Under the pieces are notes generated by a model. That model was not told where the DNA came from and ran no database searches. It saw only the letters and a program-made list of their open reading frames with translations. This document shows, piece after piece, positions 9,947 through 26,397 of a stretch of 64,000 nucleotides of DNA. Numbering within the stretch: the stretch's first letter is position 1; each line of letters opens with the position of its first letter. Both the position numbers and the translations under genes were made by a program. The stretch lies in the NCBI RefSeq assembly GCF_058153355.1, contig NZ_CM177019.1; one strand, given 5' to 3'.

Positions 9947-9973
9947 GTAAAAAAAGCCGGATTAACCGGCTTT
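9947..9973 (-). terminator. Rho-independent terminator just downstream of mor (likely end of the Mu early transcript)
   Basis: The minus strand reads AAGCCGG-ttaat-CCGGCTT followed by a T7 run, starting 6 nt after the mor stop. Confidence 0.7.
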
Positions 9974-9978
9974 ACTGT

Positions 9979-10916: not shown

Positions 10917-10985
10917 GATCGTACCTCCGGAAAGAGGCGGTGCTGCAACACCGCCTGAATTTACACATCAATCAGAGAGGATTTT

Positions 10986-11252: not shown

Positions 11253-11493
11253 CAATATCCTGGTCTGATAACCCCAGCCTGCGGCGGATGTACTCCTCGC
11301 GGGCTGTTTCATTTTGCAGTGCCACTACTGTTTCCAGACGATTCATTTCGCGGTTGATAATGTCACGGACTTCTCTGGCGGTGAGATTATGCTTAATACC
11401 ATATTCAACGATAGCGCGAACACGTTCCAGCATCCCTTTTTCAGCCATGACGTTATCAATATTAAGGGGAGTAAATTTATCTTCATTGTTCAT
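11191..11493 (-). CDS. Mu early protein gp15, unknown function
   Basis: 100-aa ORF whose start overlaps the gp14 stop, within the semi-essential early region. Confidence 0.7.
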   Translation of the reverse strand: MNNEDKFTPLNIDNVMAEKGMLERVRAIVEYGIKHNLTAREVRDIINREMNRLETVVALQNETAREEYIRRRLGLSDQDIVTDAHVFEAFEIRQHLGLTN

Positions 11494-11798
11494 TTTGCGG
11501 CCCTCAGAATAAATTCAGGATAAAATTTCAGACTCATTTGCCGTAACACATCCAGTGCAGCAACGGCTGCTGATTTATCGTTGCCATCAGCAATAGCGCG
11601 GAGATTTTCAATAATCCAGTGAGGACTCAGTGACTCAGCAACAATACCGAGTCGGTACGCCATGACCTCATCAATTGCACGGTTATAAGACGGGGCGTAT
11701 ACCGCCGCCACAAAGTTACCGATCACATCTTCAGGAAAACCCGCCGCCGTCAACAACGCTGTCAGTTCCTCGGATTTTGTAAATACGCCATTATTCAT
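11490..11798 (-). CDS. Mu early protein gp14, unknown function
   Basis: The track ORF starts at a GTG (11813). I prefer the ATG at 11798 (MNNGVFTKSEEL...), which has AAGGTG 7 nt upstream. Confidence 0.65.
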   Translation of the reverse strand: MNNGVFTKSEELTALLTAAGFPEDVIGNFVAAVYAPSYNRAIDEVMAYRLGIVAESLSPHWIIENLRAIADGNDKSAAVAALDVLRQMSLKFYPEFILRAAK

Positions 11799-11982
11799 TC
11801 TGTTCACCTTCACAATTCATGCACGCCGTGTCATCGCCCATATCGCAGTGGTTGCATTTCTGCCCGCCACAATGGGGACACTCTTTCAGATATTCAGGGG
11901 ATTCATTACCGCAGGTCGGGCATTCCTGTTTCACCGTGGTGAATTTCCCCAGCCACGAATACGATGTTTCATTGTTTTCCAT
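11791..11982 (-). CDS. Mu early protein gp13, small zinc-ribbon protein
   Basis: Start chosen at the ATG at 11982 (GGAGG 6 nt upstream): MENNETSYSWLGKFTTVKQECPTCGNESPEYLKECPHCGGQKCNHCDMGDDTACMNCEGEQNE. It has four CxxC-type pairs. Confidence 0.65.
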   Translation of the reverse strand: MENNETSYSWLGKFTTVKQECPTCGNESPEYLKECPHCGGQKCNHCDMGDDTACMNCEGEQNE

Positions 11983-12520
11983 TGTTTGCCTCCGCCTGCT
12001 CCAGTGCCATAACTGGTGCGTCAGAACAGTCAAGAATGAGATAGCGCAGTACATGGTCGGTGATATTCCATGCGCTTGAGCTGCAAATAAAACGCCCCAG
12101 CCGGATATCGATATAAGCCATCACAAAACGGGGCATTCCCTGTTTGCACATCTCGTCATCCACTTCTGCAACGATGTGAACGGATTCACAGGTCAGTACG
12201 CCTGTCGCAAACTCTTTTGCCAGCGCGGGGATAGTATTACCTTCCACCCAGGGTAATGAGCGACGCCAGTTGCACCACACCGCATCATCAACGGCAGGCT
12301 GCTCAGTTGCGTTTCGTCTTACAGGCGGCGTCGGACGCGGGCGCGGAACGTCATAAAATCCGTTGCATTCGGTGAGCACTCCGGCATCAACCGCATCCCG
12401 CAGGAAATACACCATTGACGAGGGCAGCATCTTCATTTTTTCAGCCAGAACCCCGCAGGTCAGACGCCCGTAAGCCAGTAATAATGTGCTGACCCCATTC
12501 AGAACTTTTGCATCAATCAC
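11969..12520 (-). CDS. Mu early protein gp12, unknown function
   Basis: 183-aa ORF packed between gp11 and gp13. Confidence 0.7.
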   Translation of the reverse strand: MIDAKVLNGVSTLLLAYGRLTCGVLAEKMKMLPSSMVYFLRDAVDAGVLTECNGFYDVPRPRPTPPVRRNATEQPAVDDAVWCNWRRSLPWVEGNTIPALAKEFATGVLTCESVHIVAEVDDEMCKQGMPRFVMAYIDIRLGRFICSSSAWNITDHVLRYLILDCSDAPVMALEQAEANNGKQ

Positions 12521-12523
12521 CGG

Positions 12524-13078
12524 TTATTCCTCCGTCAGTGCCACAAATTCAGAATGTTTAATACGCTGGCATTCGGAGGGAACTGGTCCTTTAACCTCAC
12601 CGTCCAGAAGGCGCACCTCAAACAAAATGCCGAATCCATCACGGGTGTGGTGCATCTCCCAGAGCGATTTGAAATCCCACATATTGGGTATGACATCAAC
12701 CCCAAGTTCATTGCACAGCCAGCCCGGAAAATCCGGGTATTTACCGAGCTGATTTTCATAGCCCCGGATAAGCTCCGCGTGTTCCCGGCCTGCTGGTGTT
12801 GTCATATCCGGCATCGCTGCCCATAACTGAATATCACCAATAAAAAGTGTCCTTGATTTAATCTCCCATCCTTCCGGTGGTAAACGGTTAAACCAGACAC
12901 GCGTAACCCTCTCAGGCCCTTTGTCACCAGACAAAAACACACCGCTTGCTTTCACTGATTGCTGTAATGACGCAATAATCTCACCACGCTTAACAGAAAC
13001 CTCTTTCAGCCAGCGAATCGTATAACCGTTAGCGGCTGCGTCACTCAGTTTAAAATAAGCACATGCTTTCATTTTCAT
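12524..13078 (-). CDS. Mu early protein gp11, unknown function
   Basis: 184-aa ORF downstream of gam. Confidence 0.7.
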   Translation of the reverse strand: MKMKACAYFKLSDAAANGYTIRWLKEVSVKRGEIIASLQQSVKASGVFLSGDKGPERVTRVWFNRLPPEGWEIKSRTLFIGDIQLWAAMPDMTTPAGREHAELIRGYENQLGKYPDFPGWLCNELGVDVIPNMWDFKSLWEMHHTRDGFGILFEVRLLDGEVKGPVPSECQRIKHSEFVALTEE

Positions 13079-13169
13079 TCTCTCCGGTTCTGATTAAGGC
13101 GCGAGTCGTCCCCTGACGCATCGCGCCATAATTAAACGAATGTGAATTAATTAAATATTAATGGTGGTA

Positions 13170-13694
13170 TTAAATACCGGCTTCCTGTTCAAACGGAATA
13201 ATGGAAAAATCTTCAATTCCCGATTTAACTGTAATTCCGGCAACACCTGCGACCGCTTTCGGTTCCAGTAAAATCGCTTCCTTGTTGATTTCCTGCTTCG
13301 TGCGAATAAAGCGTTGCAGGCCAAGACGCTCCAGCGTTTCCATCACTGCATCCATACCACGAATACTTACTGATGGTGGACGGACCCGCCACGATACATC
13401 ACCGGTGACAAGATTTGCCGTTTTCACTTTGCCGCCGTTTGTCAGTTCGTCGCGGTTCGCTTCACACCATCCCTGAACGCCTTTTGAAAGGGTTTCAATA
13501 TCGGTTTTAATCGGTGCAATCCGGGCTGCAAATTTCTCCGTAATTTCCGCGATGGCATCATTCATTTCCGTTTCCAGACGTGATGCTTCGCGCTGTAAGT
13601 CCCCGATGCGTTTAATATCGGTAATCACCGCATCGCGGTTTTGTGGCACATAAGCCGCTGCGGCACTTTTGATACGTTTTGCTGGTTTAGCCAT
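13170..13694 (-). CDS. gam: Mu Gam, DNA-end-binding (Ku-like) nuclease inhibitor
   Basis: 174-aa ORF MAKPAKRIKSAAAAYVPQNRDAVITDIKRIGDLQREASRLETEMNDAIAEI... matching my recall of Mu Gam. Confidence 0.93.
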   Translation of the reverse strand: MAKPAKRIKSAAAAYVPQNRDAVITDIKRIGDLQREASRLETEMNDAIAEITEKFAARIAPIKTDIETLSKGVQGWCEANRDELTNGGKVKTANLVTGDVSWRVRPPSVSIRGMDAVMETLERLGLQRFIRTKQEINKEAILLEPKAVAGVAGITVKSGIEDFSIIPFEQEAGI

Positions 13695-13713
13695 AAATTA
13701 AAGCTCCTGTTAA

Positions 13714-14013
13714 TTAATATCCGCTGTATACAATGCTGGATACAGCTCGATTGCTTAATTCCATCTTTCGGGCAATGACATGAATATCCAGCCCTTCTTT
13801 ATAAAGTTCACGACATAAATATTTGTCGTGTTCACTGATTCGGTATACACACAATGATATTCCGTGCCTTCTGGCATGTGCCCGGAGGGCGGTTGTGGCG
13901 ACTTTCAGTTTTTCCGCCATTTCTTCAACGGTCATTTTCCCGACGTTGGCTTCGATAAATTCCCGGTCTTCGCGTGACCAGCGCTTACGATTACACTTCA
14001 TGTCAGCCACCAT
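13714..14013 (-). CDS. Mu early protein gp9, helix-turn-helix-like small protein
   Basis: 99-aa ORF whose ATG abuts the gp8 stop (TGAATG). It contains the HTH-like segment MTVEEMAEKLKVATTALRAHARRHGI. An alternative start lies at 14001. Confidence 0.65.
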   Translation of the reverse strand: MVADMKCNRKRWSREDREFIEANVGKMTVEEMAEKLKVATTALRAHARRHGISLCVYRISEHDKYLCRELYKEGLDIHVIARKMELSNRAVSSIVYSGY

Positions 14014-14433
14014 TCAGTACAGCAGAGGCTCGCGCAGTGATGCCGGAATATGCCGCAGCGATAACTGAACCGCTTTCAGGGCAAGCGAGGAATAACAGCA
14101 GCGCGCCCGGCCTTTTGCCATTAACCGGTAATCGCGCCAGATACGCTGCCACATTTCACGGGCTTCAGGGTCTGATGCGCAGATGTATTCCCGGTCCATG
14201 ACGTACTCCCATAAATCCACGTTGAACGCACCGCCAAATGCAATGGCGCGGGATATGCTTTCGCCGCAATAACGCGCACAGATGCTGTAATGGTCGAAAG
14301 CAATCAGGTAAGTCTTTTCACCACAATCATCAACTTTCCGGGCGTAAATAAATCCGCGTAATTCACCACCGTTGTTATTGCGTCCCTGAATTCGGATTAA
14401 TGCCTGAATTTCATTTCGGATTTTGACGTTCAT
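14014..14433 (-). CDS. Mu early protein gp8, unknown function
   Basis: 139-aa ORF in the early operon. Confidence 0.65.
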   Translation of the reverse strand: MNVKIRNEIQALIRIQGRNNNGGELRGFIYARKVDDCGEKTYLIAFDHYSICARYCGESISRAIAFGGAFNVDLWEYVMDREYICASDPEAREMWQRIWRDYRLMAKGRARCCYSSLALKAVQLSLRHIPASLREPLLY

Positions 14434-14453
14434 TGTCAGCGCTCCTTTGCGAA

Positions 14454-14723
14454 TTAATGTTTAACCGCATTCACCGGATGTGGTACTAAATCACATTCAG
14501 CCTCCATACCCACTTTCTTCATAGTGGTCAGCATCTCATCTTTGGCCTTTTTAATAATTTCAGGAGCCATAGTCAGGACGATATTTGCCAGTAAATCATG
14601 AGGCCCGGTATTTTCCGTTGGCGAGATATCTGCAAGACATGCTTTTGCATCCAGAACTTCTCTGCGCCCATTGCAACCTTCACAACTTTCCAGCCATGTA
14701 AACTCAAAGATAACTTTTGCCAT
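14454..14723 (-). CDS. Mu early protein gp7, unknown function
   Basis: 89-aa ORF in the early operon. Confidence 0.65.
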   Translation of the reverse strand: MAKVIFEFTWLESCEGCNGRREVLDAKACLADISPTENTGPHDLLANIVLTMAPEIIKKAKDEMLTTMKKVGMEAECDLVPHPVNAVKH

Positions 14724-14734
14724 TTTGTTTCCCC

Positions 14735-14989
14735 TTATTGATTCTGAATAACTGCGCTGGCTTTTACCTTCGCGCCTTTTACCTGCTTAAAGAAAACCGC
14801 GCTGCACCACGGACAACATGCAAAGGAGTCCCATACTTCATTTTCTGGTGAGCATTGCGTCATAATTTGCTCTTTGCACTTGGGGCAATTAAATGCAGTC
14901 AGAGCCACATTGTTATTCTGTACCCGTTTAACCCATTCAATATATTTTCCAGCTTTAGTACACATCGTTATCTCCAGATAATCTGGCAA
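14735..14989 (-). CDS. Mu early protein gp6, Cys-pair zinc-ribbon-like
   Basis: 84-aa ORF with CPKC and CCPWC motifs. Confidence 0.65.
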
Positions 14990-15195
14990 CCATTAAGACG
15001 GGCCGTCCATACAGAACGGGCCACCCCGGACTTATGCTCCATAATTCTGACCGCGTTTTTTACCAGTTCCACCGGTGGGTAAGTGATTTCAAGAATCGGA
15101 CGCGCCACGCCGAGATATGATTCATTTACATGACTCCCGCGCGCCTGTAACCAGTTCTGCGCATCCGTTGCCATTTTTATATTTCGGGCCATCAT
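14968..15195 (-). CDS. kil: Mu Kil (gp5), host-killing / cell-division-affecting protein
   Basis: 75-aa ORF that is the first gene after B, which is the position of kil in Mu (recall). Confidence 0.7.
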
Positions 15196-15210
15196 AATTT
15201 CTTCTCCTTC

Positions 15211-16149
15211 TTAATTACGCAGCAGCGTTAAAATATCAACGTCCAGGTCTAATTCACGGAAAGCCTGACGCAGATAATCTTCGTTAACACGCTCACCTTT
15301 ACCATGAGCCGTCATGGCGGCAAGGCGAAGCGAATGATTCAGAATGCGAAGCGCACCGGGTTTCTGTGCAATTTGCTGTAACAACTCCAGTTCTTTTTCG
15401 CCGTTAATATGCCAGGCATCCGCAATAGCTTTTACATCGGCTTTTTTGGTTTTATTAATTGCAGTGGGCTTTGCAATACGGGAAAACAGACGGGCAAATT
15501 CAACCGTTCTGTTGCCCCCCGTCATATTTGAATAAACGCGGTGATTGCCCATCAGCACAAGGCCAGTGCGGGTTGATTCCTGTAACAGGCGGAGTTCTTC
15601 CAGAGCTTCAGCACCAAGATGATCAGCTTCGTCGATGATAACCAGCCCCTGTGTACCTTCAAGGCGGCGTCGCAGGGCGCGGGAGAGCGGCCCTTTACGG
15701 CGTGGTGCGTCATTCATTCCCAGCTCAAACGCCAGTTCAGTAAGACATTCCAGAACGCTGGCACAGGATGGCGTAATGGTGATCATCCAGACATTGTTAT
15801 TGGTGCGGCGATATTCACGGGCCGCTTCGGTTTTGCCCACACCAGGATTGCCACATACAACAGCAATACTTTCAGTCAGGCTGGCAAAACGCATACTTGT
15901 CCAGATTTGTTTTACCGTCTGCGTTTCCACAAAGCGGGGCGGTTCCGGTAGTTCTGCGACTGCATGATATTTTTCCAACCAGCGTTGCAGTATTTGTGCA
16001 ACACGTTCGTTATCCCCGTTGTACTTATCATTGATAAAACTACTGATAGTCCCGGTAGAAAGTCCGCTCTCAAGGGCAATTTGTTTAAAGGTGGTTTCTT
16101 CATTTTCTACAAGGGTGCGCAGTCCTGCGCGAATATCTGAAATATTCAT
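15211..16149 (-). CDS. B: MuB, AAA+ ATP-dependent target DNA activator
   Basis: 312-aa ORF MNISDIRAGLRTLVENEETTFKQIALESGLSTGTISSFINDKYNGDNERV... with Walker A GNPGVGKT and Walker B VIIDEADHL. It matches my recall of MuB. Confidence 0.95.
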   Translation of the reverse strand: MNISDIRAGLRTLVENEETTFKQIALESGLSTGTISSFINDKYNGDNERVAQILQRWLEKYHAVAELPEPPRFVETQTVKQIWTSMRFASLTESIAVVCGNPGVGKTEAAREYRRTNNNVWMITITPSCASVLECLTELAFELGMNDAPRRKGPLSRALRRRLEGTQGLVIIDEADHLGAEALEELRLLQESTRTGLVLMGNHRVYSNMTGGNRTVEFARLFSRIAKPTAINKTKKADVKAIADAWHINGEKELELLQQIAQKPGALRILNHSLRLAAMTAHGKGERVNEDYLRQAFRELDLDVDILTLLRN

Positions 16150-16187
16150 CTGAATAACCTCGTAATTAAATTTTGTTAAAACGTTAA

Positions 16188-18179
16188 TTAAATGACTTTT
16201 TTACGTCTGTTCTGTTCCAGAATATCCAGCGAATGATTCAGATATTCATCACGCTCAGTTTCGTATTCATCATCACGCTCCTGATTCTTCACCCGTTCCG
16301 TATTACCGGAAGGCCGGAAAATGCTTACAATTCGTGATTCTGGTGCTTCAGGTTCGGCTATCTGCGGCAGCAGCTCTGCCACTTCCAGTGCATCCATTTG
16401 TTTCTGTGCCTTAATCGCTGCTTTCGTCGCAGATTTCAGTTGTTTCTGGCGGCGGCGATATTCACGGCCTGCCGCAGCATCATTAAACGCAACAGGTGCC
16501 AGACATTCCGCTTCACAGATAAACCGACCGTCCAGGGTGTAGCAATAAACCGTGCTGTGTAACTGCTGTGGATCAAATCTGACCACAACTTTTTTCACTC
16601 CGGCATTCATTAACGCCATGTTGTAATAAACGTTTTTCGCGCCTTTAAGGGAGCCGCCAACTTTAAGCGCGAACTCGCCTTTACGTGAAACGTTCACCGC
16701 CTCGGCAGGCAGTAACAGCATCCGTTTTTGCTCTTCGGTAGGCTTACGCACAATCGTTCTGGCGTATTCACGCTCAAAAACGTCATCAAACGAAAGTTTG
16801 CCCCCGCACATTTCTGTTTCTCGGCCTGTTCTGGCATTGAACATCGCCACACCTTCGGCAAGGGTTTTCAGAAACAGCTCTGCATCAACAGCGCGGTCGC
16901 CATAGTTATCAGGTTTTGCCTGCGGATTAGGCCCCGTATATGCGCCAGCCAGTGCCGGATGTTTATCAACGTATTCCTCAAGGCCACCAACACCGAAAGC
17001 ACGTTCTACAGGTTTTGCCTGGCCCCAGCCTTTACCGGCAACAACGCTTGTCCAGTGCATGGTCGCCCCCATCAGTAAAAACAGCCCCTTTGGATCGTCC
17101 TCTTTCACCTTAAAGCGGTAGCGATTGGGCGCGCCCCCCGTCAGCCATTTATTCGCAGCACCACGGGTGTTATCAATGGTGATGTGAAAATCCTCCGGGA
17201 TGCCGTAGCGTGTCACTACATCCATGAACGAGAGGCGAATTGAATCGATGTTCTCGCTAACATCGCAGCGCCAGCCCAGAATTTTTCGGGTTTTCACATC
17301 CTGCCAGAACCATGTTTTCGGGCGGATCACATCACCGTTAAACCAGCGTACAAAGACGTTATGCAGATAACCGTCGCCGTTGATCCACTGCATGGCGTCC
17401 AGGTGTTCCACAGTTCGTTGCTGTGCCGGTATCAGATGCATCAGTGCATGTTCACCTTCACGGCAGGCAACAACCATTGCCCCGTCCAGTTGCTGAATCC
17501 GGCGAAATGCCGTGGCTCGGGAGGGAATACTCCAGCCATGCTCGCGGGCTGCCAGTTCCAGACGCTCATAACATTTGCGGAAGGCGGGTTTTTCCGGTCG
17601 CAGATAATCTGCAATCAGAAACTGCCAGGCATCCTCGTCAAATTCACTTTTGTGAACATTGCGACGGGATGCTCCACGTCCATCAACAAGTGCAGCCGCC
17701 CAGTCAGGCTTCGCAAACTTCTGTACCTGGTAATACTTGTCCCGCAAAGTGGATGCGCTGACCTGGTAATGCCCTGCAACGGTCGCAAAAGCCGTTTTCG
17801 TTGAAATCCCCTGGTTCAGCATTTCGTCTGCAGCCTGAACCGCAGGCAACCATTTTTCAGCAAGTCTGCGCTGGGAATCGCTGGCGTTATCCCATTTGCT
17901 CCACAGTGCCTCACGATCATAATCATGGGCTTCCAGCGTGGGGCGGGCGATTTCAAAATACCCCTGACTTGTTTCAATCTCTCCTTGTCTCAGCAATAAC
18001 GCCGCTTTCGCTTCAACAGGTAAAGAGTTCGCATTGTATTCAATTGCTTTACCACCTTTGACACCTGCTCTAGTGCGGTTTTGCCATCCTTGCTTTTTAG
18101 CAACATAAATCACACCAGCCGATGTTTTCGGCAAACCAGGAAGATTCGCACACTCTTTCGGTGATACCCAAAGTTCCAT
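16188..18179 (-). CDS. A: MuA DDE transposase
   Basis: The track ORF (666 aa) is trimmed to [48 protein letters not shown]... (663 aa, the MuA length I recall). Confidence 0.95.
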
Positions 18180-18180
18180 G

Positions 18181-18408
18181 TTATTCACCTGCTTGATATC
18201 GGCTAGGCCAGATTACTTCCGGTTTAGTTTCTAAGGCGTTAGCAATAATCTGCTCACCCTTTGGCCAGTGTCGTTCTAGCGCATTAGCTAATGTAGTTGG
18301 CGCATAACCGAACTGCCGGGAAAGAGCTGATAAAGAGAGCTTTCTTTTCTTAAGTCCCGCAATCACATCCGCTCGATGCCAATCACGGGCCTTTTCGTTG
18401 GAACACAT
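18181..18408 (-). CDS. ner: Mu Ner, Cro-like negative regulator of early transcription
   Basis: 75-aa [55 protein letters not shown]... matching my recall of Ner. Confidence 0.93.
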
Positions 18409-18577
18409 TTAAAAACCCTCCTAAGTTTTGTAATCTATAAAGTTAGCAATTTAACTAAGTGTAAAAACTTAGCTAGCTTGCTAAAAAGATAATTACTGAA
18501 AAGCTTTTTGTAAAGTTACTTTTTAGTAAATTTCTTTGATTACTGATTAATGCATTGATAAATAAGGGGTTTAAATT
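18409..18577. promoter_or_regulatory. Mu c-ner divergent control region: operators O1-O3 / transposition enhancer (IAS), with Pe and Pc promoters
   Basis: AT-rich 169-bp gap between divergent ner and c. Inverted copies of the repressor-site motif I recall (CTTTT-Py-AGTAA) are seen at 18492-18503 (attactgaaaag) and 18519-18530 (ctttttagtaaa). Confidence 0.8.
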
Positions 18578-19168
18578 TTGAAAAGTAACTTTATAGAAAA
18601 AGACGATACTGAAAAGTCAATTTGGTGTTCGCCGCAAGAAATTATGGCTGCTGATGGTATGCCTGGATCTGTTGCTGGTGTTCACTATCGAGCAAATGTT
18701 CAAGGCTGGACGAAGCGAAAAAAGGAAGGTGTCAAGGGGGGGAAAGCTGTTGAATACGATGTGATGTCTATGCCCACCAAAGAACGAGAGCAAGTTATTG
18801 CGCACTTGGGGTTATCCACACCGGATACTGGTGTTCAAGCCAATGAGAAACAGGATTCTTCGGAACTGATAAACAAATTAACCACAACCTTAATCAATAT
18901 GATTGAAGAGCTGGAACCAGATGAAGCACGCAAGGCACTGAAACTTTTAAGTAAAGGGGGGTTGTTGGCGTTAATGCCTCTTGTATTTAATGAACAGAAA
19001 CTTTACAGCTTTATAGGATTTTCACAGCAAAGTATTCAGACGTTGATGATGTTAGATGCATTACCTGAAGAAAAACGCAAAGAGATTTTGTCAAAGTATG
19101 GGATTCATGAACAGGAAAGTGTTGTAGTACCTTCACAGGAACCACAGGAGGTAAAAAAAGCCGTATAA
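18578..19168 (+). CDS. c: Mu repressor c (Repc)
   Basis: 196-aa ORF with a TTG start: MKSNFIEK..TEKSIWCSPQEIMAADGMPGSVAGVHYRANVQGWTKRKKEGVKGGKAVEYDV... It matches my recall of Repc, and its N-terminus is paralogous to the MuA N-terminus in the same window. Confidence 0.95.
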   Translation: MKSNFIEKDDTEKSIWCSPQEIMAADGMPGSVAGVHYRANVQGWTKRKKEGVKGGKAVEYDVMSMPTKEREQVIAHLGLSTPDTGVQANEKQDSSELINKLTTTLINMIEELEPDEARKALKLLSKGGLLALMPLVFNEQKLYSFIGFSQQSIQTLMMLDALPEEKRKEILSKYGIHEQESVVVPSQEPQEVKKAV

Positions 19169-19332
19169 CAACCATGAACCAGCTAAAACATACTTCACCT
19201 CACATAATCACACATGTAACATACCTAAACGGCATAAGCTGATTTGTGATATGAGTCATTTGGTGACAGCCTGGTTGTTATCGGTTTTGAACGTTTTTTG
19301 AAGCTGTTATTGAAATGATTTGCAGTGTTTTT

Positions 19333-19506
19333 GTTTTTCGTATTTTGAATGAAACAAAAGCAATTTTTTACTATCTTTCGCGTTTCATTGATTAACGACT
19401 AAAATTTGCGCTACAGGCTTGCAAGCCCCACCAAATCTAATCCCATCAGATCCCGAATAATCCAATGTCCTCCCGGTTTTTTTCGTACTTCAAGTGAATC
19501 AATACA
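19333..19506 (-). repeat. Mu attL: MuA end-binding sites L1 (about 19477-19506), L2 (about 19374-19395) and L3 (about 19333-19356)
   Basis: Three copies of a related motif are seen: ttttcgtacttcaagtgaatca (L1), tttcgcgtttcattgattaa (L2) and tttcgtattttgaatgaaaca (L3). The terminal ...TACA at 19506 is the complement of the Mu 5'-TGTA end. Confidence 0.85.
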
Positions 19507-19540: not shown

Positions 19541-20443
19541 ATGCAAATCACCAACATGCATTGCAGTGGACAAACCGTTTCACTTGCCGCGGGGGATTAT
19601 CACGCGACTATCGTGACGGTTGGTGCTGGTCTGGCTGAATTAACTTTTCAGGGTTGTCATTTAGTCATCCCGCACAAACCCGAAGAGATGCCGCTGGCGC
19701 ATCTGGGTAAAGTGCTTATTCCGTGGCCGAACCGGATCGCCAACGGCTGTTACCGCTATCAGGGACAGGAATATCAGTTACCCATTAATGAACATAGTTC
19801 AAAAGCCGCTATTCACGGGCTGCTTGCCTGGCGAGACTGGCAAATTAGCGAATTAACCGCCACCAGCGTTACCCTGACAGCTTTTCTACCGCCCAGTTAC
19901 GGCTATCCGTTTATGCTGGCTTCGCAGGTTGTTTATTCGCTCAATGCTCGCACGGGCCTTTCCGTTGAGATCGCAAGCCAGAATATTGGTACTGTGACCG
20001 CACCTTATGGTGTGGGTATTCATCCTTATTTAACCTGCAACTTAACATCTGTTGATGACTATCTTTTCCAGCTTCCGGCAGAACAGGTTTATGCCGTCGA
20101 TGAGCACGCAAATCCGACAACGCTTCACCACGTTGATGAGCTGAATTTAAATTTCACGCGGGCGACAAAAATAGCCGCGACAAAAATAGACCATACCTTT
20201 AAAACCGCTAATGATCTGTGGGAAATGACCATTACCCATCCACAGCAGGCGCTGTCGGTGAGTCTTTGTTCCGATCAACCCTGGGTGCAGGTTTATAGCG
20301 GCGAAAAATTACAGCGTCAGGGACTGGCAGTTGAACCTATGAGTTGCCCGCCTAACGCCTTTAATTCAGGTATCGACTTATTATTACTGGAACCAGGAAA
20401 AACGCACCGCCTGTTTTTTAATATTCACGGGCAGCACAATTAA
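19541..20443 (+). CDS. yihR: Aldose-1-epimerase family protein YihR (sulfoquinovose mutarotase)
   Basis: The track ORF 19406..20443 is trimmed to the first ATG in host DNA (MQITNMHCSGQTVSLAAGDYHATIVTVGAGLAELTF...). It has galactose-mutarotase-like motifs and lies next to yihQ. Confidence 0.85.
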   Translation: MQITNMHCSGQTVSLAAGDYHATIVTVGAGLAELTFQGCHLVIPHKPEEMPLAHLGKVLIPWPNRIANGCYRYQGQEYQLPINEHSSKAAIHGLLAWRDWQISELTATSVTLTAFLPPSYGYPFMLASQVVYSLNARTGLSVEIASQNIGTVTAPYGVGIHPYLTCNLTSVDDYLFQLPAEQVYAVDEHANPTTLHHVDELNLNFTRATKIAATKIDHTFKTANDLWEMTITHPQQALSVSLCSDQPWVQVYSGEKLQRQGLAVEPMSCPPNAFNSGIDLLLLEPGKTHRLFFNIHGQHN

Positions 20444-20503
20444 TTTTATTAAGAAAAGAACGAGATTATTGTTTAGGGTTGTATTTACACAACAGGAAAT
20501 ATT

Positions 20504-21379
20504 ATGGACTTTTTTACGTTATTTTCGCCAGATGGGGCCATGCTGGAAACAAACGTGGTATGTATCGTTATCGCGTTGATGTTTCTTTATACCTTTGTGG
20601 GGATATGCGCGGGATTTGGTGGCGGTTTAACCACCATGCCACTCGTCACGTTAATGCTCCCCGTAAAAATGGCAACACCACTTTCGGTAATTGTCGGCAC
20701 CGCAACCGCCTTGTACGCCACCTGGCTATCACGCAAAGAAACGGATTGGCGCTCGGCAATGGTGCTGATTATTTTCTCATTTTTGGGAATACCCGTCGGT
20801 TTATATGCGCTGTCATATTTACCCGACCATTTTATGAAAGTGGGCTTAGGTGGATTTCTTATCCTCTACTCCTTTTACAGCATGTTTATTCCTCGCTTGC
20901 CGATTTATGACCGTAACTGGATCGCCGCACCTATCGGCGCAGTAGCTGGCGCATTAGGCGCGGCGTTCTCAACCAACGGGCCGCCGATGGTTATCTACGG
21001 GATGCTGCGTAACTTAGGTCCGGCGGCATTTCGCGGCACTCTGAACGCTTTCTTCACCGCAAACAACATCGCGGTGATCGGCGGGCTGGCGACCAGCGGA
21101 ATTTTGACTGTTTCTATCTTTAAACTGGTGCTGTTTTGTATTCCCACCATGATCCTCGGTTCACTGATTGGACAATATGTGCATAAACGCATTTCGGTCA
21201 AAGTGTTTCGTGTGATGGTCTTTTTATTGTTGATTGCCTCCGGTTCTATGTTGATAAAAGGTGCGTTGGGAATTCCCGCCGCTGCCGCACTTCTGCCTCC
21301 GTTTACCTTGTTAGTTATACTGCAACTGGCATTTGGTAAAAAAGTGGCGGCAATCCGCCGGGCTGAAGAAAGTAAATAA
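20504..21379 (+). CDS. TSUP (TauE/SafE) family anion permease
   Basis: 291-aa polytopic membrane protein with the Gly-rich motif GICAGFGGGLTTMPL and an internal repeat (second half ...APIGAVAGALGAAFSTNGPPMV). AGGAAA lies upstream of the ATG. Confidence 0.8.
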   Translation: MDFFTLFSPDGAMLETNVVCIVIALMFLYTFVGICAGFGGGLTTMPLVTLMLPVKMATPLSVIVGTATALYATWLSRKETDWRSAMVLIIFSFLGIPVGLYALSYLPDHFMKVGLGGFLILYSFYSMFIPRLPIYDRNWIAAPIGAVAGALGAAFSTNGPPMVIYGMLRNLGPAAFRGTLNAFFTANNIAVIGGLATSGILTVSIFKLVLFCIPTMILGSLIGQYVHKRISVKVFRVMVFLLLIASGSMLIKGALGIPAAAALLPPFTLLVILQLAFGKKVAAIRRAEESK

Positions 21380-21485
21380 TCATTATGCGGGTTTTAATTT
21401 ATACCTTCACACATTCTTTAATTAATGAAACCTGTAATAACAGGATGGCATGAAATATTAGTTTTATACTCTATGGAGATTATTT

Positions 21486-23522
21486 ATGGATACGCCACGC
21501 CCACAGTTATTAGATTTTCAATTTCATCAGAATAACGACAGTTTTACTCTACGTTTTCAAGACCGTCTTATTTTAATCCATAGCAAAGATAATCCTTGCT
21601 TATCGATTGGCTCAGGTATAGCGGATATCGATATGTTCCGCGGTAATTTCAGCATTAAAGATAAATTGCAGGAGAAGATTGCGCTCACCGACGCCATCGT
21701 CAGCCAGTCACCGGATGGCTGGTTAATCCATTTCAGCCGTGGTTCTGACATTAGCGCCACGCTGCGTATCTCTGCCGACGATCAGGGCCGTTTATTGCTG
21801 GAACTACAAAACGACAACCATCACCACAACCGCATCTGGCTGCGTCTTGCCGCACAACCAGAGGACCATATCTACGGCTGCGGCGAACAATTCTCCTACT
21901 TTGATCTGCGCGGCAAACCGTTCCCGCTATGGACCAGTGAACAAGGCGTTGGTCGCAACAAACAAACCTATGTCACCTGGCAGGCCGACTGCAAAGAGAA
22001 CGCGGGCGGCGACTATTACTGGACTTTCTTCCCGCAGCCTACTTTTGTCAGCACGCAGAAGTATTACTGCCATGTCGATAACAGCTGCTATATGAACTTC
22101 GACTTCAGTGCTCCGGAATACCATGAACTGGCATTGTGGGAAGACAATGCCACCCTGCGTTTTGAATGTGCGGACACATACATCTCCCTGTTGGAAAAAT
22201 TAACCGCCCTGCTGGGACGTCAGCCAGAACTGCCCGACTGGATTTATGACGGGGTAACGCTAGGTATTCAGGGCGGGACAGATGTATGCCAGAAGAAACT
22301 GGATACCATGCGTAACGCGGGTGTGAAGGTCAACGGCATCTGGGCGCAGGACTGGTCCGGGATCCGCATGACCTCGTTTGGCAAACGTGTGATGTGGAAC
22401 TGGAAGTGGAACAGTGAAAACTACCCACAGTTAGATTCCCGCATCAAGCAATGGAAAGAAGAAGGCGTGCAGTTCCTCGCCTACATCAACCCGTATGTTG
22501 CCAGCGATAAGGACCTCTGCGCCGAGGCGGCTTCACATGGCTATCTGGCAAAAGATGCCTCTGGCGGTGACTATCTGGTGGAATTTGGGGAGTTTTACGG
22601 CGGCGTTGTCGATTTGACCAATCCTGAAGCATATTCCTGGTTCAAAGAAGTCATCAAGAAAAACATGATCGAATTGGGCTGCGGCGGCTGGATGGCAGAT
22701 TTTGGCGAATACTTGCCGACCGATACGTATCTGCATAACGGCGTTAGCGCCGAAATTATGCATAACGCCTGGCCCGCACTGTGGGCGAAATGTAACTACG
22801 AAGCCCTTGAAGAAACGGGCAAGCTTGGCGAGATCCTTTTCTTTATGCGCGCCGGTTCTACCGGTAGCCAGAAATACTCCACCATGATGTGGGCGGGCGA
22901 CCAGAACGTCGACTGGAGTCTGGACGATGGCCTGGCGTCGGTTGTTCCGGCGGCGCTCTCGCTGGCGATGACCGGGCATGGCCTGCATCACAGTGACATT
23001 GGCGGTTACACCACCCTGTTTGAGATGAAGCGCAGCAAAGAGCTGCTGCTGCGCTGGTGCGATTTCAGCGCCTTCACGCCGATGATGCGCACCCACGAAG
23101 GTAACCGTCCTGGCGACAACTGGCAGTTTGACGGCGACGCGGAAACCATCGCCCATTTTGCCCGTATGACCACCGTCTTCACCACCCTGAAACCTTACCT
23201 CAAAGACGCCGTCGCGCTGAATGCGAAGTCCGGCCTGCCGGTTATGCGCCCGCTGTTCCTGCATTACGAAGACGACGCGCAGACCTACACCCTGAAATAT
23301 CAGTACCTGTTAGGCCGCGACATTCTGGTCGCTCCGGTGCATGAACAAGGCCGTAGCGACTGGACGCTCTATCTGCCGGAGGATAACTGGGTCCACGCCT
23401 GGACAGGTGAAGCGTTCCGGGGCGGGGAAGTTACCGTTAATGCGCCCATCGGTAAACCGCCGGTCTTTTATCGCGCCGATAGCGAATGGGCGGCACTGTT
23501 CGCGTCGTTAAAAAGCATCTAA
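21486..23522 (+). CDS. yihQ: GH31 sulfoquinovosidase YihQ
   Basis: 678-aa ORF with GH31 motifs (GIWAQDWSG, GWMADFGEYLP, WAGDQNVDW). Length and context match E. coli YihQ. Confidence 0.93.
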   Translation: MDTPRPQLLDFQFHQNNDSFTLRFQDRLILIHSKDNPCLSIGSGIADIDMFRGNFSIKDKLQEKIALTDAIVSQSPDGWLIHFSRGSDISATLRISADDQGRLLLELQNDNHHHNRIWLRLAAQPEDHIYGCGEQFSYFDLRGKPFPLWTSEQGVGRNKQTYVTWQADCKENAGGDYYWTFFPQPTFVSTQKYYCHVDNSCYMNFDFSAPEYHELALWEDNATLRFECADTYISLLEKLTALLGRQPELPDWIYDGVTLGIQGGTDVCQKKLDTMRNAGVKVNGIWAQDWSGIRMTSFGKRVMWNWKWNSENYPQLDSRIKQWKEEGVQFLAYINPYVASDKDLCAEAASHGYLAKDASGGDYLVEFGEFYGGVVDLTNPEAYSWFKEVIKKNMIELGCGGWMADFGEYLPTDTYLHNGVSAEIMHNAWPALWAKCNYEALEETGKLGEILFFMRAGSTGSQKYSTMMWAGDQNVDWSLDDGLASVVPAALSLAMTGHGLHHSDIGGYTTLFEMKRSKELLLRWCDFSAFTPMMRTHEGNRPGDNWQFDGDAETIAHFARMTTVFTTLKPYLKDAVALNAKSGLPVMRPLFLHYEDDAQTYTLKYQYLLGRDILVAPVHEQGRSDWTLYLPEDNWVHAWTGEAFRGGEVTVNAPIGKPPVFYRADSEWAALFASLKSI

Positions 23523-23567: not shown

Positions 23568-24953
23568 ATGAGTCACATCACAACGGAAGATCCGGCTACT
23601 TTACGTCTGCCCTTTAAAGAGAAACTCTCTTACGGTATCGGCGATCTGGCCTCTAACATCCTGCTGGATATCGGCACGCTTTATCTTTTGAAGTTTTATA
23701 CCGACGTTCTGGGGCTGCCCGGTACCTATGGCGGCATTATCTTTTTGATTTCGAAGTTCTTTACTGCGTTTACCGATATGGGTACCGGCATCATGCTCGA
23801 TTCCCGACGCAAGATCGGTCCAAAAGGTAAGTTCCGTCCTTTTATTCTGTATGCGTCATTCCCGGTCACCTTACTGGCGATCGCCAACTTTGTCGGCACA
23901 CCGTTTGATGTCACCGGTAAAACGGTGATGGCCACTATCCTGTTTATGCTCTACGGGCTGTTTTTCAGCATGATGAACTGCTCTTATGGCGCAATGGTCC
24001 CCGCTATTACCAAAAACCCCAACGAACGCGCATCACTGGCGGCATGGCGTCAGGGTGGCGCTACATTGGGCCTGCTGCTTTGTACGGTGGGATTCGTGCC
24101 GGTTATGAATCTTATCGAGGGTAATCAGCAACTTGGCTATATCTTCGCCGCCACGCTGTTTTCACTGTTCGGCCTGCTGTTTATGTGGATCTGCTATTCG
24201 GGCGTGAAAGAGCGTTATGTCGAAACGCAACCTGCAAATCCGGCGCAAAAGCCTGGCTTGTTGCAGTCTTTCCGCGCAATTGCGGGTAACCGCCCACTGT
24301 TCATTCTGTGTATTGCCAACCTCTGCACCTTAGGGGCGTTTAACGTCAAGCTCGCCATCCAGGTCTATTACACCCAGTACGTACTTAACGATCCCATCCT
24401 GTTGTCGTATATGGGATTTTTCAGCATGGGCTGTATTTTCATCGGCGTGTTCCTGATGCCTGGCGCAGTCAGACGTTTTGGTAAGAAGAAGGTCTATATC
24501 GGCGGTCTGCTGATCTGGGTGCTGGGCGATCTGCTCAACTATTTCTTCGGCGGCGGCTCGGTTAGCTTTGTGGCGTTCTCCTGCCTGGCATTCTTCGGCT
24601 CGGCGTTTGTTAACAGCCTGAACTGGGCACTGGTTTCTGACACCGTCGAGTACGGCGAGTGGCGCACCGGTGTGCGTTCGGAAGGTACGGTCTACACCGG
24701 CTTCACCTTCTTTCGCAAAGTTTCTCAGGCGCTGGCAGGCTTCTTCCCTGGCTGGATGCTGACGCAAATCGGCTATGTACCAAACGTCGCCCAGGCTGAC
24801 CACACCATTGAAGGGTTGCGCCAGCTGATCTTCATCTACCCAAGCGCACTGGCGGTAGTCACCATTGTTGCGATGGGTTGCTTCTACAGCCTGAACGAGA
24901 AGATGTACGTCCGCATTGTAGAAGAAATAGAAGCCCGTAAACGCACGGCATAA
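23568..24953 (+). CDS. yihP: GPH-family (glycoside-pentoside-hexuronide) transporter YihP
   Basis: Start chosen at the ATG at 23568 (AGGGAG upstream), giving 461 aa. It is a paralogue of the next gene. Confidence 0.9.
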   Translation: MSHITTEDPATLRLPFKEKLSYGIGDLASNILLDIGTLYLLKFYTDVLGLPGTYGGIIFLISKFFTAFTDMGTGIMLDSRRKIGPKGKFRPFILYASFPVTLLAIANFVGTPFDVTGKTVMATILFMLYGLFFSMMNCSYGAMVPAITKNPNERASLAAWRQGGATLGLLLCTVGFVPVMNLIEGNQQLGYIFAATLFSLFGLLFMWICYSGVKERYVETQPANPAQKPGLLQSFRAIAGNRPLFILCIANLCTLGAFNVKLAIQVYYTQYVLNDPILLSYMGFFSMGCIFIGVFLMPGAVRRFGKKKVYIGGLLIWVLGDLLNYFFGGGSVSFVAFSCLAFFGSAFVNSLNWALVSDTVEYGEWRTGVRSEGTVYTGFTFFRKVSQALAGFFPGWMLTQIGYVPNVAQADHTIEGLRQLIFIYPSALAVVTIVAMGCFYSLNEKMYVRIVEEIEARKRTA

Positions 24954-24993: not shown

Positions 24994-26397
24994 ATGTCTG
25001 ACCATAATCCACTGACATTAAAACTGAATCTGCGGGAAAAAATCGCTTATGGCATGGGCGACGTCGGTTCGAATTTAATGCTTAGCATCGGCACTCTGTA
25101 TCTCCTCAAATTTTATACCGATGAATTAGGGATGCCTGCTTACTATGGCGGGATTATCTTTCTGGTGGCGAAATTCTTTACCGCGTTTACCGATATGCTC
25201 ACCGGATTTTTACTCGACTCGCGGAAAAATATTGGGCCTAAAGGCAAATTTCGTCCCTTTATTTTATATGCAGCGGTTCCGGCGGCGTTAATTGCAACGC
25301 TCCAGTTTATCGCCACCACTTTTAGTTTGCCGATTAAAACGACGATTGCCACCGCGCTGTTTATGATGTTTGGACTTTCATACAGTCTGATGAACTGCTC
25401 GTATGGCGCGATGATCCCAGCAATTACCAAAAACCCCAATGAGCGCGCGCAGCTTGCGGCTTACCGCCAGGGTGGTGCAACCATAGGGCTATTGATTTGT
25501 ACCGTAGCATTTATTCCATTGCAGTCGCTTTTTTCTGACTCCACTGTCGGTTATGCCTGCGCGGCACTGATGTTCTCCATTGGTGGCTTTATTTTTATGA
25601 TGCTGTGCTACAGAGGCGTCAAAGAGCATTATGTGGACACGACGCCAACCGGACATAAAGCCAGTATTCTCAAATCTTTTTGCGCGATATTTCGTAATCC
25701 GCCATTGCTGGTTTTATGCATTGCTAACCTGTGTACCCTGGCGGCATTTAATATCAAACTGGCAATTCAGGTCTATTACACCCAGTATGTGCTGAATGAT
25801 ATTAATTTATTGTCGTGGATGGGATTCTTCAGTATGGGATGCATCCTCATCGGCGTATTGCTGGTGCCATTAACTGTAAAATATTTTGGTAAAAAACAGG
25901 TTTATTTAGCTGGCATGGTGCTGTGGGCGGTGGGGGATATCCTGAATTATTTCTGGGGCAGTAACTCTTTCACTTTCGTCATGTTCTCTTGTGTCGCCTT
26001 TTTTGGTACGGCCTTTGTAAACAGCCTGAACTGGGCGCTGGTACCGGATACCGTAGATTATGGTGAATGGAAAACAGGTATACGTGCCGAAGGTTCTGTT
26101 TATACCGGTTATACCTTCTTTCGTAAAATTTCAGCCGCACTTGCTGGCTTCTTGCCAGGCATTATGCTGACGCAAATCGGTTATGTTCCCAACATCGCGC
26201 AAAGCGATGCAACATTACAGGGTTTGCGTCAGCTCATTTTTATTTGGCCTTGTGCGCTGGCGATAATTGCTGCATTGACGATGGGATTCTTTTACACGCT
26301 CAATGAAAAACGTTTTGCGATGATTATTGAGGAAGTTAACCAACGCAAAAATAAAGAAATTAAGACAGAAGAAAAAACGGCTTCCGTAACGTTATAA
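24994..26397 (+). CDS. yihO: GPH-family sulfoquinovose importer YihO
   Basis: Start chosen at the ATG at 24994 (AAGGAG 5 nt upstream), giving 467 aa. It shares long identical blocks with YihP (LYLLKFYTD, GKFRPFILYA, MNCSYGAM.PAITKNPNERA). Confidence 0.9.
   Translation: MSDHNPLTLKLNLREKIAYGMGDVGSNLMLSIGTLYLLKFYTDELGMPAYYGGIIFLVAKFFTAFTDMLTGFLLDSRKNIGPKGKFRPFILYAAVPAALIATLQFIATTFSLPIKTTIATALFMMFGLSYSLMNCSYGAMIPAITKNPNERAQLAAYRQGGATIGLLICTVAFIPLQSLFSDSTVGYACAALMFSIGGFIFMMLCYRGVKEHYVDTTPTGHKASILKSFCAIFRNPPLLVLCIANLCTLAAFNIKLAIQVYYTQYVLNDINLLSWMGFFSMGCILIGVLLVPLTVKYFGKKQVYLAGMVLWAVGDILNYFWGSNSFTFVMFSCVAFFGTAFVNSLNWALVPDTVDYGEWKTGIRAEGSVYTGYTFFRKISAALAGFLPGIMLTQIGYVPNIAQSDATLQGLRQLIFIWPCALAIIAALTMGFFYTLNEKRFAMIIEEVNQRKNKEIKTEEKTASVTL

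What the first reader, a model, noticed from the sequence alone, without database searches (positions are those of the whole stretch)
20504..21379. TSUP/TauE-like permease gene embedded in the sulfoquinovose cluster between yihR and yihQ
A 291-aa polytopic membrane protein with TauE/SafE-type Gly-rich motifs sits co-directionally between the mutarotase and the sulfoquinovosidase genes. As I recall, K-12 has yihR directly adjacent to yihQ (consecutive b-numbers).

TauE/SafE-family proteins are implicated in exporting sulfite and organosulfonates. The sulfo-EMP pathway excretes 2,3-dihydroxypropane-1-sulfonate, and its exporter in E. coli is not firmly assigned.

Inference: this gene is a candidate product exporter, present in only some lineages.
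Basis: partly seen in the sequence, partly recalled or inferred. Interest (0 to 1): 0.5.

Follow-up and report, generated by a model that had tools for sequence, protein, structure and literature searches.

The report
Candidate sulfonate exporter in sulfoquinovose cluster
A conserved membrane-transporter gene lies inside the sulfoquinovose (plant sulfosugar) gene cluster of this Escherichia genome, of Salmonella and of about a third of E. coli that carry the full cluster. K-12 lacks it, and it is most likely an exporter for the sulfonate waste product, which is useful but not surprising.

Summary
Window 20504-21379 (+) encodes an intact 291-aa TauE/SafE (TSUP) protein (Pfam E 2.4e-35) between yihR and yihQ. 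K-12 has 151 bp of unrelated DNA in place of this 993-bp segment.

The gene is common. It occurs in 1295 of 5426 complete E. coli genomes, about 33% of those with yihQ. It has the same position in Salmonella, Citrobacter and E. whittamii, and RefSeq already annotates it generically.

It is under purifying selection (dN/dS 0.04) and has diverged in step with its neighbours. It therefore looks like an old cassette component that K-12-type haplotypes lack.

Orthologues (77-85% aa) in Vibrio, Hafnia, Kluyvera, Raoultella and others end a non-homologous sulfo-ED cluster. A 2026 paper shows that this cluster type excretes DHPS in Vibrio. All 19 orthologue loci fetched from other genomes were sulfoglycolysis clusters. 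Two yih clusters that carry tauE lack yihP.

This supports a C3-sulfonate (DHPS) exporter role, by inference only. K-12 exports DHPS without the gene.

It separates yihR-tauE-yihQPO-ompL from yihS, which in related genomes precedes yihR.

Verdict: a new member of a known kind, of moderate interest.

The parts
20504..21379 (+). tauE-like gene: 291-aa TSUP/TauE-SafE family polytopic membrane protein, candidate C3-sulfonate (DHPS) exporter
   Evidence: ORF. Pfam PF01925, E 2.4e-35. The exact protein is seen on at least 1000 public contigs and named 'sulfite exporter TauE/SafE family protein [Escherichia]'. dN/dS is 0.042 against the O157:H7 allele.
20435..21427 (.). 993-bp segment replaced by 151 bp of unrelated DNA in K-12/BL21-type cassettes: last ~9 nt of yihR, 60-bp spacer, tauE, and 48 bp downstream
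   Evidence: blastn of the K-12 locus L004 against the window. O157:H7 has the same breakpoints. The K-12 filler holds no tauE remnant (tblastn best E 0.9).
20444..20503 (+). yihR-tauE spacer with an AGGA ribosome-binding site 7 nt before the ATG; no +strand terminator-like site lies in it
   Evidence: Sequence; promoter/terminator scan.
19541..20443 (+). yihR, sulfoquinovose mutarotase (aldose 1-epimerase)
   Evidence: Pfam PF01263 and NCBIfam NF011719, 616 bits. Matches the 903-nt yihR annotated in E. coli.
21431..21444 (.). perfect palindrome CCTGTAATAACAGG, 42 nt upstream of yihQ, just inside the point where homology to K-12 resumes (21428); possible operator, function unknown
   Evidence: Sequence. 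It is the only exact copy in the O157 locus.
21486..23522 (+). yihQ, sulfoquinovosidase (GH31)
   Evidence: Pfam PF01055 and NCBIfam NF007746, 1239 bits.
23568..24953 (+). yihP, GPH-family MFS transporter, the literature's presumed DHPS exporter; the longest ORF starts at GTG 23535
   Evidence: Pfam PF13347 and TIGR00792. E. coli annotation gives 1386 nt.
24994..26397 (+). yihO, GPH-family MFS transporter (SQ importer in K-12); the longest ORF starts at 24988
   Evidence: A K-12 delta-yihO mutant fails to grow on SQ (PMC6278857).
26464..27156 (+). ompL porin
   Evidence: NCBIfam NF007434, 469 bits.
1..19506 (-). left ~19.5 kb of a phage Mu-type prophage (c repressor 18578-19168 +, transposase A 16188-18188 -, B 15211-16149 -); base 1 of Mu corresponds to window 19506, 34 bp upstream of the yihR ATG
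   Evidence: 98.3% identity to Escherichia phage Mu NC_000929 from its base 1. 94-97% coverage by Mu-like prophages at other sites in E. coli genomes. End sequence read directly.

Best explanation
The gene encodes a TSUP/TauE-type inner-membrane anion permease that belongs to the enterobacterial sulfoquinovose (SQ) catabolic module. Its most likely job is to export the C3-sulfonate end product, 2,3-dihydroxypropane-1-sulfonate (DHPS), made from sulfolactaldehyde by YihU. It would act alongside, or redundantly with, the MFS protein YihP.

It is read in the same direction as yihR and yihQ, with its own ribosome-binding site and no terminator between the genes, so it is probably co-expressed with them.

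Shown here:
- family membership;
- position and intactness;
- purifying selection;
- presence/absence polymorphism in E. coli;
- exclusive association of the orthologue group with two enzymatically unrelated SQ pathways.

Inferred:
- substrate (DHPS) and direction (export);
- SQ induction;
- that K-12-type cassettes lost the gene rather than others gaining it.
For: 1. Pfam TauE match at E 2.4e-35.

2. All 19 orthologue loci fetched from other genomes are sulfoglycolysis clusters.
- Nine are yih (sulfo-EMP) clusters. The gene lies between yihR and yihQ in E. coli, E. whittamii, Enterobacteriaceae G50, Salmonella and Citrobacter. It lies between yihQ and the MFS gene in RIT691 and K. quasipneumoniae.
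- Ten have it as the last gene of a cluster with an SSF symporter, IlvD/Edd dehydratase (PF00920), HpcH aldolase (PF03328), epimerase, SGL lactonase, YihU-like reductase and an SDR. These are from Leminorella, Raoultella, Edwardsiella, Hafnia, Kluyvera, Mixta, Enterobacter and Vibrio.

3. That SDR is a close homologue of P. putida SQ 1-dehydrogenase (PDB 9gwu, E 4.9e-98). The catalytic residues S147/Y160/K164 and the sulfonate-binding residues R152/R154 are conserved (residues from PMC12133307). The PF00920 and PF03328 enzymes are the sulfo-ED dehydratase and aldolase families (PMC9594981).

4. A Vibrio cluster with this gene content was shown to convert SQ to DHPS nearly stoichiometrically (PMC13372026). 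The compounds common to both cluster types are therefore SQ, sulfolactaldehyde and DHPS. Each type already has its own importer candidate.

5. Where both pathways sit side by side (L011, L020) there is a single tauE and a single mutarotase.

6. Two yih clusters with tauE have lost yihP but kept yihO (L006, L019).

7. dN/dS is 0.042 and dS is 0.22, similar to the neighbours. dN against Salmonella is 0.09, like yihQ, yihP and yihO.

8. TauE-type proteins are the proposed SL/DHPS exporters in sulfo-TAL and actinobacterial sulfo-EMP clusters (PMC7491151, PMC8873060).

9. YihP's exporter role in K-12 is only presumed (PMC6278857, PMC12890257).
Against: - No transport, expression or knockout data exist for this gene or any orthologue.
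- K-12 and about two thirds of E. coli with the long cassette lack it, yet K-12 excretes DHPS stoichiometrically, so it is not required.
- No TSUP family member has a solved structure, and the family includes proposed importers as well as exporters, so direction cannot be read from sequence.
- The AlphaFold model was too poor to use (pLDDT 44.5).
- The yihP-loss correlation rests on two loci.
- No +strand sigma-70-like promoter or SQ-responsive operator was identified next to the gene.
Confidence: 0.55

Rival explanations
1. TauE is an importer, for SQ, SQ-glycerol or another sulfonate, and not an exporter. It would add an uptake route to the cluster.
For: The TSUP family is named after a proposed 4-toluenesulfonate uptake permease (PMC8873060). 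SQ is also common to both cluster types. Direction cannot be inferred from sequence.
Against: Every cluster type already encodes dedicated importer candidates: YihO/YihP GPH symporters, or an SSF symporter. YihO is genetically required for SQ growth in K-12 (PMC6278857). No other exporter candidate exists in the sulfo-ED-type clusters, which excrete DHPS (PMC13372026).
Confidence: 0.13
2. TauE is a sulfite (or general small-anion) exporter, as the database name says. It would protect the cell from sulfite released from sulfonates.
For: PGAP/RefSeq name. C. necator TauE was proposed as a sulfite exporter (Weinitschke 2007, cited in PMC8873060).
Against: Neither the sulfo-EMP pathway nor the modified sulfo-ED pathway cleaves the C-S bond. 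The sulfonate leaves as DHPS, so no sulfite is made (PMC6278857, PMC13372026). No desulfonating enzyme is encoded in any of the clusters examined.
Confidence: 0.1
3. TauE is a dispensable passenger of the cassette with no role in SQ metabolism, or with a role unrelated to pathway metabolites. The polymorphism in E. coli would be neutral.
For: About 67% of yihQ-bearing E. coli lack it. K-12 grows on SQ without it. IS1-mediated truncation occurs (BE2-5).
Against: Strong purifying selection (dN/dS 0.042). At least 77% aa identity from Vibrio to Escherichia. The gene is retained in two different cluster architectures and at three different positions, always within SQ clusters. It is near full length in 1287 of the 1295 genomes that carry it.
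Confidence: 0.12

Closest known systems
SftE and other TauE-type 'SL/DHPS exporters' of sulfo-TAL clusters (Bacillus aryabhattai SOS1, Enterococcus gilvus, Clostridium symbiosum; PMC7491151)
   Same: Same Pfam family. Encoded inside an SQ catabolic cluster. Proposed to export the C3-sulfonate end product. Also assigned only by context or proteomics.
   Different: Different pathway (transaldolase) and phylum. Sequence relationship to the window protein was not tested here. SftE-cluster proteins were shown to be SQ-induced, whereas no expression data exist for the enterobacterial gene.
TauE of Cupriavidus necator H16 (DUF81/TSUP; Weinitschke et al. 2007, cited in PMC8873060)
   Same: Founding member of Pfam PF01925, which the window protein matches.
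   Different: Linked to C2-sulfonate (taurine/sulfoacetate) degradation and proposed to export sulfite or sulfolactate. The sulfo-EMP pathway releases no sulfite.
YihP of E. coli K-12 (GPH/MFS), the presumed DHPS exporter
   Same: Encoded in the same cassette. Same presumed function. Neither has been tested biochemically.
   Different: Unrelated fold and family, and about 64% identical to the importer YihO. It is present in K-12, whereas tauE is not. It is absent from two tauE-bearing clusters.
TauE permease in the Arthrobacter sp. AK04 sulfo-EMP cluster (PMC8873060)
   Same: A TauE-family gene inside a sulfo-EMP cluster, proposed as the end-product exporter.
   Different: Actinobacterial. The pathway ends in sulfolactate through a dehydrogenase, and the importer is an ABC system.
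Unnamed last gene of the DHPS-forming 'modified sulfo-ED' cluster of Vibrio (pathway shown in V. splendidus JLJ25; PMC13372026)
   Same: True orthologue: 77% aa identity in V. owensii L012/L013, with the gene order dehydratase-aldolase-epimerase-lactonase-reductase-SQ dehydrogenase-TauE.
   Different: Different core enzymes (ED type rather than EMP type). The paper does not discuss the transporter. Equivalence of L012 to the JLJ25 cluster is inferred from gene content, not from JLJ25 sequence.

Membership tests
TSUP / TauE-SafE family (Pfam PF01925) | Significant match to the family HMM above the curated gathering score | tested here: met
   E 2.4e-35, 122.8 bits against a cut-off of 32.6; residues 23-248 cover profile positions 2-235 of 237. 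No NCBIfam model matches.
TSUP / TauE-SafE family (Pfam PF01925) | Polytopic all-helical membrane protein (typically 7-9 TMS) | tested here: met
   Hydropathy peaks run along the whole sequence. DSSP on the AlphaFold model gives 9-10 long helices, but the model is low confidence (pLDDT 44.5), so the exact topology is unsettled.
TSUP / TauE-SafE family (Pfam PF01925) | Internal 4+4 TMS duplication | tested here: inconclusive
   blastp of the N-terminal half against the C-terminal half aligns only the Gly-rich helix, at E 0.82.
TSUP / TauE-SafE family (Pfam PF01925) | Conserved Gly-rich helix motifs | tested here: met
   G37-F-G-G-(G/A)41, G145...G149-A-L-G152 and G193-G194. All but position 41 are invariant across the 20 orthologues aligned; position 41 is Ala in 6 of them.
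TSUP / TauE-SafE family (Pfam PF01925) | Transport of sulfite or organosulfonates | not testable with these tools
   Needs transport assays. There is no solved structure of any relative.
End-product exporters encoded in sulfoglycolysis clusters | Encoded within, and co-oriented with, SQ catabolic genes | tested here: met
   Window: yihR-tauE-yihQ-yihP-yihO-ompL. All 19 orthologue loci fetched from other genomes lie in sulfo-EMP or sulfo-ED-type clusters.
End-product exporters encoded in sulfoglycolysis clusters | Induced by SQ, or co-transcribed with pathway genes | not testable with these tools
   The only indirect evidence is a 60-bp and a 106-bp spacer with no +strand terminator-like site in them. 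K-12 RNA-seq (PMC12608037) cannot include this gene.
End-product exporters encoded in sulfoglycolysis clusters | Loss impairs DHPS/SL efflux | not testable with these tools
   No mutant data were found.
Long yih cassette (ompL-yihOPQRSTUVW; PMC12608037) | All ten canonical genes contiguous | tested here: not met
   yihR, yihQ, yihP, yihO and ompL are present. A Mu-type prophage replaces the sequence upstream of yihR within the window, so yihS-yihW are not contiguous and are presumably beyond the window start.

The most novel reading that the evidence does not exclude
TauE, not YihP, is the dedicated DHPS exporter of enterobacterial and Vibrio sulfoglycolysis. It would be a pathway-independent export module shared by sulfo-EMP and DHPS-forming sulfo-ED clusters. 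The intensively studied K-12 cassette would then be a derived variant that lost it and gets by with YihP or a housekeeping permease. That would give the first functional assignment for a DHPS exporter, reopen the role of YihP (perhaps a second importer for SQ glycosides), and explain a natural polymorphism in E. coli.
Probability: 0.3. Interest if true: 0.55.

Novelty: new member of a known kind. Interest (0 to 1): 0.38.

Why it matters
DHPS excreted by SQ-degrading enterobacteria feeds sulfite-respiring, H2S-producing gut bacteria, and no DHPS exporter has been demonstrated.

This gene is a concrete candidate, and nature has already set up the experiment:
- cassettes with YihP only (K-12);
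- cassettes with TauE and YihP (Salmonella, O157:H7, this genome);
- cassettes with TauE only (K. quasipneumoniae, Enterobacteriaceae G50).

The result also shows that the K-12 model cassette does not represent Salmonella or about a third of E. coli long cassettes. A 2025 survey of yih cassette diversity (PMC12608037) does not mention this.

Tried and rejected
- Structure: the AlphaFold2 run on a 20-sequence orthologue alignment gave pLDDT 44.5 and pTM 0.41. That is too poor for a fold search, so none was run.
- PDB sequence search with the protein found nothing at E <= 1.
- Deletion scar in K-12: the 151-bp filler has no DNA or translated similarity to tauE. Among the loci held it occurs only in K-12 and BL21. 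Gain versus loss therefore rests on distribution and co-divergence, not on a scar.
- Regulatory sites: no +strand sigma-70-like promoter lies near tauE. The palindrome CCTGTAATAACAGG does not recur in the yihU/V or yihV/W regulatory regions, so it cannot be tied to CsqR.
- Literature searches by presumed locus tags (STM4020, Z5414-Z5416, ECs4800-4802) found no paper. Denger et al. 2014 is not held.
- Internal-repeat test of the protein was not significant.
- Phylogroup assignment of the 1295 tauE+ genomes could not be done with the tools. Only strain names in sampled rows are available: O157:H7, ST1193 and others carry it; K-12 and BL21 lack it.
- I considered that the second cluster type might be a pentose/Dahms pathway, because its dehydratase passes the L-arabinonate dehydratase cut-off. 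I rejected this for three reasons: the SDR is a close SQ-dehydrogenase homologue with the sulfonate-binding arginines; CsqR-like regulators or yih genes adjoin it in three of the ten loci (L009, L011, L020); and the Vibrio pathway has been shown experimentally (PMC13372026).

Full report
OBSERVATION

Window 20504-21379 (+) is an ATG-started ORF of 291 codons. The product matches Pfam PF01925 (TauE/SafE) over residues 23-248 at E 2.4e-35, 122.8 bits against a gathering score of 32.6. No NCBIfam model matches it.

The protein is hydrophobic throughout. It carries Gly-rich motifs (GFGGG 37-41; G145..GALG152; GG 193-194) that are invariant, apart from a Gly/Ala change at position 41, in 20 orthologues.

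The flanking genes on the same strand are:
- yihR, true start 19541, 300 aa (NF011719);
- yihQ, 21486-23522 (NF007746);
- yihP, yihO and ompL.

The spacers are 60 bp (with an AGGA ribosome-binding site) and 106 bp, with no +strand terminator-like site in them.

A K-12-type genome has yihR and yihQ 198 bp apart with no gene between them. Homology to the window stops about 9 nt before the yihR stop codon and resumes 58 nt before the yihQ ATG. K-12 therefore has 151 bp of unrelated DNA where the window has 993 bp. That filler holds no trace of tauE. The observation and the K-12 recollection are both confirmed.

Window 1-19506 is the left ~19.5 kb of a prophage 98.3% identical to phage Mu at its left end. 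Base 1 of Mu corresponds to window 19506, which is 34 bp upstream of the yihR ATG.

In E. coli, Salmonella and E. whittamii, yihS ends about 70-120 bp upstream of yihR. Here the cassette is split. yihR-tauE-yihQPO-ompL is separated from yihSTUVW, which is presumably beyond the window start.

RNA polymerase binds the yihS/R spacer in K-12 (PMC5816610). Most of that spacer is now about 37 kb away. Any expression or SQ-growth test in this particular strain is therefore confounded.

DISTRIBUTION

- Megablast finds tauE in 1295 of 5426 complete E. coli genomes, and 1287 of these have at least 80% coverage. It is chromosomal in every case and is annotated 'sulfite exporter TauE/SafE family protein'.
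- yihQ is found in 3909 genomes. About 33% of 'long' cassettes therefore carry tauE.
- Most of the remaining ~28% of genomes, which lack yihQ, presumably carry the published 'short' yihTUVW cassette (PMC12608037).
- Carriers in the sampled rows include O157:H7 and ST1193. K-12 and BL21 lack the gene.
- The collection is biased, for example toward O157:H7, and phylogroups could not be assigned.
- The exact window protein is on at least 1000 public contigs.
- Salmonella enterica (86% aa), Citrobacter, E. whittamii (99%) and 'Enterobacteriaceae G50' have the same yihR-tauE-yihQ order.
- A 2025 survey of yih cassette variation does not mention the gene. Searches by gene name or presumed locus tags found no paper that treats it.

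EVOLUTION

Between the window and O157:H7, tauE has dN/dS 0.042 and dS 0.22. This is within the range of yihR, yihQ, yihP and yihO (dN/dS 0.01-0.07; dS 0.17-0.36). Against Salmonella its dN (0.09) equals that of yihQ, yihP and yihO. It has therefore evolved under purifying selection as a long-standing part of the cassette.

K-12 and O157 flanks are only 94.5-95.5% identical. The tauE+ and tauE- cassettes are thus old, diverged haplotypes. Because Salmonella and Citrobacter share the position, loss (replacement) in the K-12-type haplotype is more likely than repeated gain, but this is inference.

FUNCTION FROM CONTEXT

Nineteen orthologue loci (at least 77% aa) from other genomes were examined. 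All are sulfoglycolysis clusters.

Nine are yih clusters:
- seven have the gene between yihR and yihQ;
- RIT691 and K. quasipneumoniae have it between yihQ and the MFS gene.

Ten have it as the last gene of a different cluster. These come from Leminorella, Raoultella, Edwardsiella, Hafnia, Kluyvera, Mixta, two Enterobacter and two Vibrio. The cluster comprises:
- a LacI regulator and an SSF symporter, transcribed divergently;
- an IlvD/Edd dehydratase (PF00920);
- an HpcH/HpaI aldolase (PF03328);
- an aldose epimerase;
- an SMP-30 lactonase;
- a YihU-like beta-hydroxyacid reductase;
- an SDR;
- TauE.

PF00920 and PF03328 are the sulfo-ED dehydratase and aldolase families (PMC9594981). The SDR hits P. 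putida SQ 1-dehydrogenase (9gwu) at E 4.9e-98, against 1.8e-60 for the next structure. It keeps S147/Y160/K164 and the sulfonate-binding residues R152/R154 (PMC12133307).

A 2026 study showed by proteomics and knockout that V. splendidus uses such a 'modified sulfo-ED' cluster, with a reductase in place of the dehydrogenase, and excretes DHPS nearly stoichiometrically. It does not discuss a transporter.

The same transporter orthologue therefore accompanies two enzymatically unrelated routes. What they share is SQ going in, sulfolactaldehyde as intermediate and DHPS going out. Each route has its own importer family.

Two further observations fit this:
- Where both clusters are adjacent (L011, L020) there is one tauE and one mutarotase for both.
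- Two yih clusters with tauE retain only the YihO-type MFS and lack YihP (L006, L019).

Together these favour export of DHPS (or SL). TauE and YihP may overlap in function.

LIMITS

- Nothing here shows transport, direction or induction.
- K-12 excretes DHPS without tauE, so the gene is not essential.
- YihP's exporter role is itself only 'most likely' (PMC6278857; repeated in PMC12890257).
- No relative has a solved structure, and the AlphaFold model was unusable.
- The family name 'sulfite exporter' is unlikely to describe this protein, because neither pathway releases sulfite.

COMPARISON AND VERDICT

TauE-type exporters have been proposed, equally by context, for sulfo-TAL clusters (SftE, PMC7491151) and for actinobacterial sulfo-EMP clusters (PMC8873060). 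The R. leguminosarum preprint also describes an SL exporter gene in the P. putida sulfo-ED operon, without naming its family.

This is therefore a new member of a known kind, and the gene is already annotated generically in RefSeq.

What appears undescribed in the literature I could search:
- it is a regular component of Salmonella, Citrobacter and many Escherichia yih cassettes;
- it defines a third E. coli cassette variant;
- the same orthologue closes the DHPS-forming sulfo-ED cluster.

Interest is moderate (0.38). The finding is not surprising to a specialist, but it makes the open question 'who exports DHPS?' directly testable with natural variants.

Noticed in passing
window 1-19506: Phage Mu-type prophage, 98.3% identical to Mu at its left end. 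Mu base 1 corresponds to window 19506, 34 bp upstream of the yihR start codon, inside the yihS-yihR spacer where K-12 has an RNA-polymerase-binding site (PMC5816610). The c repressor gene (18578-19168, +) points toward yihR, so read-out transcription into yihR-tauE is conceivable. The right end and the 5-bp target duplication are outside the window.
   Followed up: partly
window 27337-32778: A six-gene operon of the STM4011-STM4015 family (two radical SAM proteins, an ATP-grasp protein, a sulfatase-like hydrolase and others) lies between ompL and typA, where K-12 and O157 have yihN-yihM-yihL. Only 157 of 5426 E. coli genomes cover at least 80% of this stretch. Some Salmonella have the same arrangement (L015). 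Function unknown.
   Followed up: partly
L018 1068-10885 (Kluyvera); L011 and L020 (Enterobacter): A DHPS-type sulfo-ED cluster is widespread in Enterobacterales. In Kluyvera it occupies the same chromosomal slot (yihX ... typA-glnA) as the E. coli yih cassette. In Enterobacter it sits next to a yih cluster that lacks yihR and tauE. This locus appears to be an exchange site for SQ-catabolic modules.
   Followed up: partly
L006 13010-13245; L019 10943-12439: In Enterobacteriaceae G50 and K. quasipneumoniae the tauE-bearing yih cluster has a single GPH transporter of the YihO type, and yihP is absent. In this small sample, transport sets are YihO+YihP, YihO+YihP+TauE or YihO+TauE.
   Followed up: partly
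window 21431-21444: Perfect 14-bp palindrome CCTGTAATAACAGG, 42 nt upstream of yihQ. It is conserved in K-12 and O157 and lies just inside the point where tauE+ and tauE- cassettes regain homology. It has no second copy in the cassette's known regulatory regions.
   Followed up: partly
L004 vs L002 (yihR, yihQ): K-12 and O157:H7 yihR and yihQ are only 94.5-95.5% identical in DNA. The window's yih genes are 92-94% identical to most E. coli, while its typA-glnALG is at best 98.6% identical to any complete E. coli genome. The cassette exists as deeply diverged haplotypes, and the window comes from a somewhat divergent Escherichia lineage.
   Followed up: partly
L017 3001-3803 (E. coli BE2-5); L003 11083-13047 (BL21): Further cassette decay. 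In BE2-5 an IS1 truncates tauE after 90 nt and the sequence from there through part of yihN is deleted. In BL21 yihQ is annotated as a pseudogene lacking its N-terminus.
   Followed up: no
protein collection, cluster 2: The 90% cluster that holds the window's TauE also lists several 299-300-aa entries named 'aldose-1-epimerase [Escherichia coli]'. This is probably a clustering or labelling artefact involving the adjacent yihR.
   Followed up: no
window 52083-57667: A stretch of about 5.6 kb has no ORF of 150 aa or more, between a 175-aa ORF and a 181-aa ORF. It could be a ribosomal RNA operon. Not checked.
   Followed up: no
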